From NCBI GenBank assembly GCA_964016885.1, contig OZ024748.1, positions 56,358,001-56,422,000 of the forward strand: DNA of 64,000 bases, given 5' to 3'. This stretch comes from Eledone cirrhosa. Lineage: Eukaryota. Of the stretch, positions 12,908 to 46,280 are shown piece after piece. The notes beneath the pieces were generated by a model that was not told the DNA's origin, made no database searches, and was given only the letters and a program-made list of their open reading frames with translations. The stretch's first letter is position 1. The number at the start of each line of letters is the position of its first letter. A program made the translations under genes and the position numbers.

Positions 12908-13075
12908 ACGGAGGAAATGTGGTAAGGAACCAGGTGGACTATAACGCACCGAAGTACTCAATACTTAGGGTAATAGAGTGGGTAATAGGAACGAGTAGGA
13001 TCCCAACGGCTGAGCTTAGTCCAGAATTAGCCGTCGAAACGGCTTGAGCTCAGCCGTCGGGGTCCTACTCGTTCC
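12908..13075. mobile_element. (TA)n-embedded hairpin element, 'ACGGAGG' family copy 1
   Basis: Near-identical to 25275-25479 and to the reverse complement of 46089-46280; both ends abut (TA)n. Confidence 0.85.
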
Positions 13076-13481
13076 TATATATATATATATATATATATAT
13101 ATATATAATAAATCAACTAATACCTTAACACTTCACACAAAGTAAAACATTTCGTTTTAATCATTTTCTAACCCAGAAAAGAGAGAGAGACAAAAAAAAA
13201 ATATATATATATATTTTTCTCCTCATAATCGTCTCTTTCTCCCTGTTTTCACATATATATATATATATATATATATATATATATATATATATATATATAT
13301 ATATATATATATATATATATATATATTTATATATCTGCATGTGCGTGTATATGTGTGTATGTATCAATAAATACATATATATAAAAGTGTATACACGTAT
13401 CAAACACACATATATATATATATATATATATAAAATAAAGTTAAATAAAAGTCAAATGATTAAAATTTAGCTTCGTTTATT

Positions 13482-13536
13482 ACTGCTATATATATTTCAG
13501 TGACAGCCATCTTTGGCTGTGACCTCTTCAGGCAGT
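13482..13536 (-). ncRNA. Minimal type I hammerhead ribozyme motif (left arm)
   Basis: Exact reverse complement of 13752-13806. Confidence 0.75.
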
Positions 13537-13751
13537 TTGAATTAGTATGGTATAGACAAGTACATATGTTGTTTAGGTGTATGATATTGTCAATACTCTG
13601 ATATGCCCAGTTCCTTGCTGGGTTGTTAATTCACTGGGGAACTGGAGTTCCCAGTGAATTAACAACCCAGCAAGGAACTGGGCATATCAGAGTATTGACA
13701 ATATCATACACCTAAACAACATATGTACTTGTCTATACCATACTAATTCAA

Positions 13752-13806
13752 ACTGCCTGAAGAGGTCACAGCCAAAGATGGCTGTCACTGAAATATATAT
13801 AGCAGT
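13752..13806 (+). ncRNA. Minimal type I hammerhead ribozyme motif (right arm)
   Basis: ACTGC CTGAAGA GGTCACAGCCA-AAGA-TGGCTGTCACT GAAA TATATA TA/ GCAGT. Confidence 0.75.
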
Positions 13807-14018
13807 AATAAACGAAGCTAAATTTTAATCATTTGACTTTTATTTAACTTTATTTTACATTACTCCGGAGTAACCAAACCAACCTGCGCACTTCGTCGAG
13901 TACTCCAGCCTGCATACTGAGGTGTTGGTATACAACCAACATAAACTCAAAATCTATATATATATATATATATATATATATATATATATATATATATATA
14001 TATATATATATATATATA

Positions 14019-14350
14019 TTTCGTTTTCTGAATTTGTTTAGCAAGGTTCTTTATCTGAAAACGTGTGTTGAAACCAATATTGTTATACTTTGGGAGGGTC
14101 ATGTTGCCAAGAAGGAACACATGCACCAGTGCTTTCACTCCAATTTATTATAAATGATATTTATAAATTTAAGAATTTTTAAATTTCCGGTTGGTTGTTT
14201 CCACAACCGGACGATTGTTCATATATTGTCAAAGTTCTTTCGTCACACATTATGTGACCTCTTCAGTGACTGGGGATTATTTTCTTTGTTTTTGTGCCTC
14301 TCCTTTGTTCTTTCCTACGCCATCTTGTTTTTGTGTGACACTTTGTGGCG
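14019..14350 (-). mobile_element. Hammerhead-bearing element, same family as 30783-31360
   Basis: Colinear with 30783-31100, starting from the same TTTCGTTT terminus at a (TA)n junction. Its right boundary is uncertain. Fragments (ACTTTGGGAGGGTCAT) at ~6050-6075 and ~31531-31547. Confidence 0.8.
14228..14270 (-). ncRNA. Minimal type I hammerhead motif
   Basis: Minus strand reads GTCA CTGAAGA G GTCACA-TAATG-TGTGAC GAAA GAAC TT/ TGAC. Confidence 0.7.
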
Positions 14351-42313: not shown

Positions 42314-42930
42314 GTCGGGTCACACTTAAGTGCTACTGGTAACATGTAACCCAGTACAACCTGTCGCATGGTCTGGTCGTCGGGGACTAAACCGGCAACA
42401 CCACCAAGATTACTTCGTGAGAAGGGTGATTTTGGACACCCTGCAGGACAAAAAACAAAAGCTGACAAAGGGGGGAAGAACTCATAAGAGTCAACGGGTA
42501 TCCAAAAAGGTGTAAATATGTATATACACATGTGCATCTGTATGTATATGTATGTATGTATATGCATGTGTCCATGTATATGTATATGCGCGGGTACATA
42601 AAAATAGTCGGGCTGGATACCCGATCGCGCGGTTAAACCACTGGCAGTGTAGGACCCCTAGCCTTTGTCAGGGCATTCTTCTAGGAGAAGGCAACTCAGG
42701 AAACTGGGATAACTCCGATAAAAAACCTGCGGCTGAGCAGTTGCCAATGATGTTGATATTTCCGGGTTATAGCTACTGTCGCTCAGAGAGTGGGATTGGG
42801 TTAGTGCACAGTCCTTGATAGTTTTTAAAAAAATCTTCACACACAGGGATTGCACGATAGAATTAATTGATAACTATTGATAATGTAATATCGTGCAATG
42901 GCCATACTCGATAACGATGGGGCAGTCATC
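42314..42930 (+). mobile_element. ~600-bp repeat unit 1 bounded by (TATG)n
   Basis: Shares GCTACTGGTAACATGTA, GACTAAAC.GGCAAC, CCTGCAGGAC, CCTAGCCTTTGTCA.GGCA, GAGAGTGGGA and the 3' end TGGCC.TACTCGA.AACGA with unit 2. Confidence 0.75.
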
Positions 42931-43040
42931 ATGTATGTATGTATGTATGTATGTATGTATGTATGTATGTATGTATGTATGTATGTATGTATATATGTAT
43001 GTATGTATGTATGTATGTATGTATGTATGTATGTATGTAT

Positions 43041-43626
43041 GTCAGGCCACCAGTTGGTGCTACTGGTAACATGTATTCCAGTACAATCTGTCTCATGGTC
43101 GGGTCGTTGGCGACTAAACTGGCAACCCCACCGAGGTTTCTTGGTGAGGAGGGTGACTTTGGACATCCTGCAGGACTAAAATCAAAACCTGTCAAAGGGC
43201 AAAGGAGCTCTTAAGAGTCAATGGCCATCCAAAATCACCGGGAGAGATGACCCCTTAGCCTTTGTCAAGGCAGAATTCTAGGAGAAGGAAAACCCTGATA
43301 TAACACCTGCAACCCTGATGGTATCCAATGATGTTGACTTCTTCATCTTGGTTAAGAGAGTGGGACTGGCTTTGTGCAGTGCCTTTGATCACTATAAAAG
43401 CTTCACGGCACAGGCATTGCTTAAATATCTGAAGATCTCTCTGCACTTGTCGTCACATGGTACCATGGGCCCAGCATTATGTGTCAATAATTGTCACAGT
43501 GTAGTGTTTTGTACCAGAGTTTTCAAGTCGCTGGCTGGACTAAAAATGTCAGCGCATCGGTAAGGGTACTCCTACATGGACATATAAAGTAGTGGCCGTA
43601 CTCGAAAACGAGTTGGCAGCCAGCAT
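43041..43626 (+). mobile_element. ~590-bp repeat unit 2 bounded by (TATG)n
   Basis: Diverged tandem paralogue of 42314-42930. Confidence 0.75.
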
Positions 43627-44167
43627 ATATGTATGTATGTATGTATGTATATGCAAGTCTGCATGGCCGAACCCTCCAGCATTTCTATTAGCAAAGGAAT
43701 GTCTGAGGGAGAAATCAGATTTATAAACATATGTCGAATGATATTTGAAGTACATACACAGTTATATATCTGTTTATGTACGTAAGTGCATATTTTTGCA
43801 TGAATATATATATATATATATATATATATATGTATGTGTGTATGTGTGTGTGTGTGTGTGTATGTGTGTGTGTGTGTGTGTGTGTGTGTGTGTGTGTGTA
43901 TGTGTGTGTGTGTGTGTGTGTGTGTGTGTGTGTGTGTGTGTGTGTGTGTGTGTGTGTGTGTGTGTGTGTTCATGCGTATGGCTGTTTGTTTGCGTGTACC
44001 TCAGATAGATATTTTCCAGCCCGTGTATATATGCAAGCCTGCGTTTTTTCTCCTTTACGCATATTTTCGAGCACGTTTCCATATATTTACATTAATGCAT
44101 GAGGTAACCCCGCTGCCAATCACGAGCTGAGTACAGCTGACCCTGAGTTCATCGACAGGCTTAGACA

Positions 44168-44535
44168 AACTACTACTACTATCACTACTACTACTACTAC
44201 TACTACTACTACTACTACTACTAATTCTACTACTACTACCACCACCACCACCACCACCACCACCGCTACTACTACTACTACTACTACTACTACTACTACT
44301 ACTACTACTACTACCACTACCACCACCACCGCTACTACTACTACTACTACTACTACTACTACTACCACCACCTCCACTACTACCACTAGCACCATCACCA
44401 CTACTACTACCACTACTTCCACTACCACCACCACCACCACCAATACTACTACTATTACTACCTCTACTACTACTACTATTACTACTACTACTACTACTAC
44501 TACTACTACTACTACTACTACTACTACTACTAATG
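44168..44535. repeat. (CTA/CCA)n trinucleotide tract
   Basis: Directly visible. Confidence 0.95.
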
Positions 44536-46088
44536 ATGATGATGTTAATAGTAATATCATCATCAACAACAGTAACAACAACAACAATAAAACATCAAAA
44601 CAGTAACCGCGATACTCCTAATAATATCAAGAACAACAATATAAATATTATAATAATATGCGTTCATCATATGACATGTTATATAAGAGTGTGATCATTT
44701 CAAATTCTGCAAAGCGGAAGTAGAATTTTTTACAGTTAGCTTCTCTTGATTTTCTAGATGTTTCTATATTTCTTTGAAAAACTTTTCCCATAATATTTAC
44801 ACTCGTCTCCATATTTTCGTTGTTGAGTAATTTTACATATATTTTAATAGAATCAATATTCAAATATAATAAGTAAATAAATAGCAGAAATAGACGAATA
44901 AATAAATAAATAATGTAAATCATAAATAAATGAACAACGGAAAGATGTGGAGGGGAGGGTGAATGGTGGATGATATAGAATAGGGTGAAGGAGGAAGAGG
45001 CGAGTAAAGAGACTGGAGATTATTGAGATATTTGAAGACAGTAAAAAAAAACGAATATTAAGTTTTAAAAATAACATATGAAAACATATAGACCAAAATG
45101 GCGGTATGCGTATATTTAAATACGATGACAGGAAGTTAACATAAAGCTTCTCCTTGGACATTTCAAACGCAAATCAAAGAGTGGGAGGAGATTGTAGTAC
45201 ATGTTTTAGATCCTTGAAATGATTTTGAAACATTTTATTCGCCCACAAAATATATTTATTTCGTTCATGGTGTTAGGTTGCTGGCTTTTCCATTTATATT
45301 GTTTTATTTCAAGTACTGATATCAGTTTAAAATTTCTTTTTTAAATATTTGTTTTGCCTCCTTGTTCAATTGTATTATTTCTTCTTTTCACTTCACACTC
45401 ACGATCCCGTCCCACTATCTTTGTCACTTTCTCTCCCCCTCTCTTTCTCTCTTTCTTCTCTTCTTCCTCTGAATATATATATATATATATATATATATAT
45501 ATATATATATATATATATATTTTTGTTATGTGTTTCCGAGAATAATACTTTGTTTGTTGAAAATGTTTAAGTGTGAATAAATCATAAATGAGAGTTAATT
45601 TGTTGGCAAATTAATAGTTATTATGAAATACCATTTATGGATGAGGATGCGTACAGACAGTGACATAAATATATTTATATATACATATACATACATATAT
45701 ATATTTATATATATATATATATATATATATATATATATATATATATATATATATATATATATATGCACACACACATTCATACATACATACATACATACAT
45801 ATATATATATTCAAATGAGAGATTAAAGTTTAAGCAAAGCTTTCACCTTTAACGGGTAACATTTATTATTACTATATATATATATGTAAGTATCTATGTG
45901 TGTATACGTACATACATATATGTATACAGACGTACAGTAGTATGTATATATATATACATACATGCACACATATATATATGGACACATGCATACATACATT
46001 TAAGTAAGTGCCGTACTAAGAGTGAGAAATGGAGTTTCGTTTCATTCTATTCCATTTATATATATATATATATATATATATATATATA

Positions 46089-46280
46089 GGAACGAGTAGG
46101 ACCCCGACGGCTGAGCACAAGCCGTTTCGACGGCTAATTCTGGACTCAGAGTTAGCCGTCGAAACGGCTTGAGCTCAGCCGTCGGGGTCCTACTCGTTCC
46201 TATTACCCACTCTACTACCCTAAATATTGAGTACTTTGGTGCCTTATGGTCCATCTGCTTCCTTACCACATTTCCTTCGT
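46089..46280. mobile_element. 'ACGGAGG' family copy 3 (opposite orientation)
   Basis: Reverse complement of copies 1 and 2, with internal hairpin 46086-46203; (TA)n on both sides. Confidence 0.9.

What the first reader, a model, noticed from the sequence alone, without database searches (positions are those of the whole stretch)
12908..46280. 'ACGGAGG' family: fixed-end TA-inserted hairpin element made of a mirrored half-hammerhead
Three full copies (12908, 25275, 46089) and fragments (6178-6229, 16220-16275, 21508-21537) share the ends (TA)n-ACG(G/A)AGG and GTTCC-(TA)n. Each arm contains GAAAC-GGCT-loop-AGCC-GTC, a perfect hammerhead helix III plus GUC site, but no CUGANGA. The fold-back axis always lies ~15-25 nt upstream of GAAAC, where helix II would be. 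Inference: cDNA snapped back at helix II and self-primed its second strand, or this is a half ribozyme completed in trans. The constant outer ends suggest the hairpin form itself is being amplified.
Basis: partly seen in the sequence, partly recalled or inferred. Interest (0 to 1): 0.75.

Follow-up and report, generated by a model that had tools for sequence, protein, structure and literature searches.

The report
Penelope retrotransposon ends joined head-to-head
These hairpins are stubs of a young, very abundant Penelope-type jumping gene, two copies of its end joined head to head inside TA repeats, likely made when its RNA is copied from both sides of a DNA cut; the kind is already known, and only the hints about where copying stops are of further interest.

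Summary
Each element is two 5'-truncated copies of one ~142-nt segment joined head to head in (TA)n, one ending at parent position +65, the other at +142. That segment is the end (pLTR plus tail) of an intact 3,531-bp Penelope-like retrotransposon with Hydra-clade protein motifs. The genome holds at least 11,139 such hairpins. The parent carries the missing hammerhead half in cis, with core UUGAGAA (the known U3-A8 variant) or CUGAGAA and a 31-34-nt loop II, so no trans partner is needed. All 50 unselected hairpins pair one short end with a long one, 38 junctions differ, and the short arm reaches further 5' in 19. This argues against snap-back and against an amplified hairpin, and favours priming from both nicked strands. 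Most arms stop at +1..+11, likely the RNA's start. A minority stop exactly at the predicted ribozyme cut (27 of 50 mini-hairpins), but two controls did not support catalysis. The architecture is published; earlier notes of this scan reached similar readings on other DNA of this genome.

The parts
12908..13016 (-). Copy 1, long arm: parent +34..+142 (helix III 3' part, predicted cut site, tail)
13016..13078 (+). Copy 1, short arm: parent +3..+65, ends GTTCC|TA
25275..25416 (-). Copy 2, long arm: parent +2..+142
25418..25482 (+). Copy 2, short arm: parent +2..+65
46086..46146 (-). Copy 3, short arm: parent +5..+65
46147..46280 (+). Copy 3, long arm: parent +9..+142
25440..25462 (+). 3' half of the type I hammerhead (GAAA, helix III, GUC; predicted cut after 25462); the same motif lies at 13036-13058 (+), 46161-46183 (+), 25372-25394 (-), 46106-46128 (-)
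   Evidence: parent fold
25321..25331 (-). GTATTGAGTAC tail motif shared with other hammerhead-bearing families of this genome (also 12954-12964, -)
6178..6230 (-). Solo short arm, parent +10..+62
16216..16278 (+). Solo short arm, parent +3..+65, (TA)n on both sides
21507..21538 (+). Decayed solo arm, parent +19..+50
22210..22350 (.).

Best explanation
The element is a pair of 5'-truncated ends of an intact Penelope-like retrotransposon with Hydra-clade motifs, joined head to head in (TA)n, and it likely forms when the element's enzyme nicks both strands of a TA repeat and copies the same RNA from each nick. Shown: parent identity, the two fixed outer ends (+65 and +142, each followed by TAT in the parent), the one-long-one-short rule, the variable junctions, the 5' limit near +1. 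Inferred: one strand starts at +142 and the other at +65 (the published two-start 'tail' mechanism); both cDNAs run to the 5' end of the RNA, most likely a start site inside hammerhead loop II (+1), in a minority the predicted ribozyme cut (+46); their 3' ends are then joined through 0-2 nt of microhomology or a short filler. Because the +1..+142 segment also opens the autonomous RNA, starting there would give these stubs directly, without a separate master hairpin. Confidence: identity about 0.97, two-sided priming about 0.7, +1 as transcription start about 0.55.
For: Long copies run 1.4 kb upstream into a GIY-YIG ORF end. At least 150 places match that ORF end, the listed non-self ones at 91-93% identity, and many lie in 784-codon open frames. 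Tandem units of 3,531 bp differ by 0-1 nt; inside arrays the tail continues into the ORF (306 exact junctions), while array ends are the same two ends as in the window. Hydra motifs RWR, DKT, CxCx5C, CxxC and CxH are present. First 50 hairpins on contig C1: 49 long+short, 1 body+short, none long+long or short+short; mini-hairpins 47 of 50 long+short. Both arms share the subfamily haplotype in 43 of 50 (3 differ, 4 have one unassignable or doubtful arm; about 27% expected by chance, my estimate). Arm 5' ends: 100 of 100 within +0..+11 in the gap-limited sample; 23 of 30 within -2..+20 in an arm-only sample, none between -2 and -34; summed contig depth rises about 15-20-fold across +1..+25. L198 is a hairpin starting at +8 that runs into the ORF; L199/L200 are tandem units each starting at +2. 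Sister family: 11 of 12 partner arms end 18-25 nt 5' of GAAAC, the same spacing. In vitro a PLE protein cuts and extends both strands from two start sites and is predicted to be a dimer (PMC11167929, main text).
Against: No extra G (cap copy) at -1: 9 of the first 100 non-C cases (hand count). No RNA data locate the start. Upstream pLTRs of intact copies usually extend well past +1, so longer templates exist. Junctions could have been reshaped after insertion, as perfect palindromes are unstable, which would weaken the 'short arm reaches further' argument. The pattern limits the gap to 30 nt and so cannot see long extensions. Pfam, PDB and Rfam searches gave no hit for the parent protein or ribozyme, so the RT, endonuclease and clade calls rest on motifs and a by-eye match to a published Hydra protein. 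The parent hammerhead fold is the minimum-energy structure but no more stable than shuffles (z -0.40). A few head joins involve two subfamilies or other families (L230, L033, L036, L039), so not all come from one RNA.
Confidence: 0.85

Rival explanations
1. Self-priming (snap-back): one cDNA or an antisense RNA folds back near helix II and copies itself, as the first reader proposed and as was hypothesised for rotifer Penelope palindromes.
For: Arms usually share a haplotype; many junctions have 0-2 nt of overlap and a loop-sized offset; PMC3846280 (Discussion passage) reads head-to-head palindromes as self-priming.
Against: The copied arm cannot hold bases missing from its template, and only the long arm can supply the tail; yet the short arm reaches further in 19 of 50 against 21 for the long arm, in 6 of 16 paired tail-picked copies by 3 nt or more (hand count), and in window copy 12908 by 31 nt. 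Sixteen of 50 mini-hairpins have both arms ending on the same base with 1-7 nt of filler. In the sister family the axis is outside helix II.
Confidence: 0.12
2. The 5' limit is a reverse-transcriptase stall at RNA structure (loop II stem, base of helix III), or palindrome collapse in DNA, rather than real RNA ends.
For: No cap-G excess; +1..+9 is the 3' strand of a predicted stem in loop II; the +46 pile-up is as strong in the subfamily whose long copies mostly carry a C3/A8 mismatch and is not clean in the sister family.
Against: The spacing from GAAAC is kept in a family with a different structure at that place; tandem units restart at +2..+9 and at +45/46; a stall at helix III would be expected to include C45, whereas unambiguous pairs stop at G46.
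Confidence: 0.3
3. A non-autonomous master (SINE-like RNA, MITE or hairpin retrozyme) is amplified as a hairpin unit.
For: High copy number and constant outer ends; one junction recurs 5 times in 50.
Against: 38 distinct junctions in 50; the recurring junction occurs on different haplotypes; the outer ends are those of the autonomous arrays; subfamily haplotypes of the stubs match those of long copies; the ends are asymmetric, unlike terminal inverted repeats.
Confidence: 0.05

Closest known systems
Hydra clade of C-terminal EN+ Penelope-like elements, incl. Hydra-1_Obim (Craig et al. 2021, PMC8557442; section 11 read whole, other passages, supplement search passages)
   Same: Single ORF with RT then GIY-YIG; RW(K/R), DKT, CxCx5C, CxxC and CxH motifs; (TA)n target; hammerhead near the end; partial tandems; inverted 5'-truncated copy; tail on one end. 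The Hydra-1_Obim protein shown matches the parent block by block by eye.
   Different: Unit is 3,531 bp (Hydra generally under 3 kb); tail is about 78 nt (30-40 bp described); hammerhead has a U3-A8 or C3/A8 core, a 5-6-bp helix III and a 31-34-nt loop II. Two short motifs of this family were not found in that supplement, so this family does not appear to be listed there.
PAc (Poseidon, green anole) in vitro mechanism (Frangieh et al. 2024, PMC11167929; main text and start of Methods read)
   Same: Both strands cut and extended, two adjacent internal start sites giving the tail, AT-rich target, uncleaved RNA as main substrate.
   Different: There the start sites are not homologous to the target; here both are followed by TAT, matching (TA)n. 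They found no reads at the ribozyme cut; here a minority of genomic copies end at the predicted cut.
PLE hammerheads (Cervera and De la Pena 2014, PMC4209133; Results and Discussion read)
   Same: Type I hammerhead in the pLTR; U3-A8 covariant already reported in Schistosoma PLEs; pairs of motifs on opposite strands reported.
   Different: Metazoan PLE ribozymes there have minimal helix III; this one has a stable helix III and a long loop II.
Adineta vaga Penelope insertions with inverted pLTR, tail and junction palindromes (Arkhipova et al. 2013, PMC3846280; passages)
   Same: Head-to-head inverted pLTR, optional tail on one arm, palindrome at the junction, Inr-like sequence in the pLTR.
   Different: Low copy number there, and read as self-priming; the counts here favour two separately primed cDNAs.

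Membership tests
EN+ Penelope-like element | Single ORF with RT and C-terminal GIY-YIG endonuclease | tested here: met
   784-codon open frame, 717 aa from the first Met, with QFDI, YRDD and YIGLT motifs; no Pfam or PDB hit, so by motif and by-eye likeness
EN+ Penelope-like element | Partial tandems forming pLTRs | tested here: met
   3,531-bp arrays; 306 exact tail-body junctions
EN+ Penelope-like element | Inverted 5'-truncated copy at the 5' end | tested here: met
   L172, L176, L179, L180 and the hairpins
EN+ Penelope-like element | Tail on one end only | tested here: met
   50 of 50 pair a short end with a long or body end
EN+ Penelope-like element | Hammerhead motif in the pLTR | tested here: met
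   35 distinct long copies; stem I 5 of 5 pairs in 26; fold
Hydra clade | RWK motif, DKG changed to DKT, GxKF/Y not conserved | tested here: met
   RWR at 104, DKT at 184, no GxKF/Y
Hydra clade | CxCX5C linker instead of CX2-5CxxC | tested here: met
   CxCx5C at 639; no CX2-5CxxC
Hydra clade | No CCHH motif; CxxC and CxH around the conserved E and N | tested here: met
   CxxC at 737, CxH near the C terminus; one Cys only in the GIY-YIG core, by eye
Hydra clade | Insertion in (TA)n | tested here: met
Hydra clade | Generally under 3 kb (typical, not strict) | tested here: not met
   3,531 bp
Hydra clade | Placement in the RT phylogeny | not tested
   reference proteins were not available as stored sequences
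Type I hammerhead ribozyme (parent) | Core with a 3-8 pair, GAAA, NUH | tested here: inconclusive
   19 of 35 distinct long copies have U3-A8 with position 7 varying; 16 have C3 with A8
Type I hammerhead ribozyme (parent) | Self-cleavage | not testable with these tools
   indirect only: 5' ends pile up at +46; controls not supportive
MITE / DNA transposon | Terminal inverted repeats at both ends and a conserved interior | tested here: not met
   one arm carries a 78-nt tail; junctions vary; the parent is a retroelement
MITE / DNA transposon | Target-site duplication | tested here: inconclusive
   cannot be read inside (TA)n
Non-LTR retrozyme | Tandem non-coding monomers each with a complete hammerhead | tested here: not met
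   stubs are inverted pairs lacking the 5' half; tandem stubs (L199, L200) also lack it

The most novel reading that the evidence does not exclude
The stubs are a genome-wide record of the Penelope reaction: one enzyme dimer primes both target strands from two fixed sites on one RNA, and the copies end at the RNA's two natural 5' ends, a start site placed inside hammerhead loop II and the ribozyme's own cut, which would be evidence that a Penelope hammerhead cleaves in the germ line.
Probability: 0.35. Interest if true: 0.65.

Novelty: new member of a known kind. Interest (0 to 1): 0.36.

Why it matters
As a sequence class this is ordinary: inverted, truncated Penelope ends with a tail are published. 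The value is mechanistic. How these elements build head-to-head ends, and whether their hammerheads cut in vivo, are described as open (PMC8557442, PMC11167929, PMC3846280). A very young family with intact 784-codon frames and more than 11,000 stubs allows counts that favour two-sided priming over self-priming and names two exact RNA positions (+1, +46) to test.

Tried and rejected
Rfam on the window: only microRNA-type matches to palindromes among the 150 listed of 521; none on the parent pLTR. Canonical-core search CTGANGA + helix III: 17 heterogeneous hits, chance or chimeric; it missed the parent because the core differs and loop II is long. Search for a non-TA continuation of the tail (221 hits) missed the body junction because my pattern excluded it; one search found it. 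Cap-G signature: the apparent G excess came from how those loci were selected; the less biased one search gave 9 G in the first 100. Cleavage controls: the sister family showed at most 3 of 50 pairs with filler at its predicted cut and 11 ambiguous microhomology joins (hand count); subfamily B (5 of 6 long copies C3/A8) had 109 mini-hairpins with 15 filler and 4 blunt pairs in the first 50 (hand count), about the same rate per arm as subfamily A (199; 16 and 11). No RNA holder listed. Contig lay-out listed no joints and no loose end at +46 among the rows shown. Pfam and PDB gave nothing; the protein atlas was unavailable (78). The twin-hairpin lead from earlier notes: the segment after the long end folds as a bulged hairpin (z -2.1), but the segment after the short end folds in another register (z -0.85), so only partly seen. 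MITE, Helentron-like element and trans-completed half-ribozyme were considered and dropped once the coding parent was found.
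Full report
Numbering: +1 is the A of TC|ATTTAG in the parent (L172:4221). The predicted ribozyme cut follows C45; the short end is +65, the long end +142.

Observation. The three full copies and three fragments are present. Each full copy is two copies of one segment with their 5' ends joined: a long arm with a ~78-nt tail and a short arm without it. Copy 12908 pairs +34..+142 with +3..+65, copy 25275 pairs +2..+142 with +2..+65, copy 46086 pairs +9..+142 with +5..+65. 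The fragments are solo short arms. The window lies in a 3.0-Gb animal genome with 11,139 hairpin centres (exact 12-nt arms, gap up to 30 nt) and 38,075 exact 22-nt arm matches; reversed-pattern controls gave 0.

Parent. A search for CTGANGA before helix III gave only 17 mixed hits. A looser search linking a canonical core to the tail motif GTATTGAGTAC gave 11,376 hits against 0; these are other families with the same layout, two of which (L114, L120 of 30 loci) continue into an RT ORF 52-53% identical to the focal parent. Among 30 copies picked only by the tail end, 7 ran upstream into shared sequence and 3 reached a GIY-YIG ORF end. That peptide matched at least 150 places, the listed non-self ones at 91-93% identity. 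Ten fetched stretches all held 784- or 786-codon frames; the arrays have 3,531-bp units in the one measured, whose four compared units differ by 0-1 nt. Inside arrays the tail continues into the ORF (306 exact junctions); array ends are the window's two ends followed by (TA)n. The protein has RWR, DKT, CxCx5C, CxxC and CxH and lacks GxKF/Y and CX2-5CxxC, the Hydra-clade marks of PMC8557442 section 11. It matches Hydra-1_Obim by eye in a supplement passage. Pfam, PDB and Rfam gave no hit.

Ribozyme. In 35 distinct long copies stem I (ACCCC with GGGGU) is complete in 26, helix III has 5 of 5 scored pairs in 24, loop II is 31-34 nt, and the core is UUGANAA in 19 and begins CUGA with A at position 8 in 16. 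U3-A8 is a reported PLE variant (PMC4209133; PMC3088659 passage). The minimum-energy fold of the young subfamily is the three-way junction, but with z -0.40. The stubs start inside loop II and so lack the 5' half.

How the hairpin forms. The first 50 hairpins on contig C1 were all analysed: 49 long+short, 1 body+short, no symmetric pair. There are 38 distinct oriented junctions; the long arm reaches further 5' in 21, the short arm in 19 (8 by 3 nt or more after dropping L252, a substitution artefact), 10 are equal. Self-priming needs the tail-bearing arm to be the template and so to reach at least as far, which fails in those cases unless centres were deleted later. Arms share a haplotype in 43 of 50; 3 differ, one of them (L230) between subfamilies, and 4 have an unassignable or doubtful arm. 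This fits priming from both nicked strands on one RNA, as suggested by the in vitro results for an anole element (PMC11167929). That step is inferred.

Where copying stops. Of 30 arms picked only by +20..+41, 23 start at -2..+20 and 7 run past -34; summed contig depth steps up across the same place (not a copy number). A hairpin starting at +8 runs into the ORF (L198) and tandem stubs restart at +2 (L199, L200). In a sister family 11 of 12 detected partner arms end 18-25 nt 5' of GAAAC, the same spacing, though there it falls upstream of CUGAUGA (partners further than 110 nt away were not scored). Penelope has an internal promoter in its pLTR (PMC2377424 passages), and TCATTT resembles an initiator (recalled consensus). 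A cap-derived G was not enriched. A transcription start is therefore likely, not shown.

A second stop at the predicted cut. Of 290 young-subfamily copies with a base other than C at +45, 21 of 30 examined start at +46; at the control position +52 there were 95 hits, 13 of 30 flagged, 4 of them point variants on inspection. Of 199 mini-hairpins, the first 50 gave 16 with both arms exactly at +46 plus 1-7 nt of filler, 11 blunt (ambiguous with +45), 13 with no arm beyond +45 and 10 longer; 47 were long+short. Against catalysis: a subfamily whose long copies mostly carry C3/A8 shows the pile-up at the same rate, and the sister family shows no clean one. I put in vivo cleavage at about 0.4.

Literature. 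Seven full-text searches were run. The architecture is published (PMC8557442 passages; PMC3846280 passages). The searches listed no paper that, by title and abstract start, counts long/short pairing or cut-site ends in genomic PLE copies; the library is incomplete. Of the retrozyme preprint (10.64898/2026.07.22.740005) I read the first fifth. Of the Craig et al. supplement I saw search passages only; its sequence files may hold a closer relative under other words.

Earlier notes of this scan, consulted after my reading was formed, describe the same kind of element on other DNA of this genome, including the long/short rule and both 5' stops; a sequence look-up found nothing. They are not independent support.

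Verdict: a real repeat, a new family of a known kind; the interest lies in the mechanistic counts.

Noticed in passing
window 47-231, 2953-3136, 5426-5606, 6698-7052, 28681-28864, 33553-33730, 38588-39196, 48089-48181, 51958-52138, 55415-55795: A ~185-bp interspersed repeat in at least 12 copies, some in tandem, 75-95% identical, SINE-like; ARAGORN finds no tRNA gene in the window.
   Followed up: no
window 30783-31356 and 14019-14322: Another head-to-head family with CTGAAGA...GAAA cores on both arms, one arm longer than the other, axis near 31098; a solo copy at 14019-14322.
   Followed up: partly
window 2436-2696, 16514-17126, 27675-28020, 34004-34394: Further inverted pairs, most beside (TA)n, possibly other head-to-head retroelement insertions.
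   Followed up: no
L033, L036, L038, L039, L040: The focal arm is joined at its 5' end to pieces of other repeats, some carrying their own CTGANGA, giving chimeric hammerhead-like motifs.
   Followed up: partly
L199, L200, L201, L203, L219, L221, L223, L225, L226: Short tandem stubs whose 3' ends vary at +207..+362 and whose next unit restarts at +2..+11 or +45/46, as if the enzyme jumps from one RNA's 5' end to another RNA.
   Followed up: partly
window 25321-25331 (-), 22323-22333 (+), 3310-3320 (-); genome-wide: GTATTGAGTAC lies about 57-63 nt after GAAAC in the focal and one sister family (11,376 matches with a canonical core); a near-identical motif ends another consensus listed just before Hydra-1_Obim in the Craig et al. 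supplement.
   Followed up: partly
G000:C1:437198716-437213196 (L172, L173): A five-unit tandem array whose four compared units differ by 0-1 nt in 3,531, with an inverted truncated copy at its head: very recent activity and a multimeric or circular template.
   Followed up: partly
rows: Fillers between arms at +46 are often copied from the neighbouring arm sequence, as in templated end-joining.
   Followed up: no
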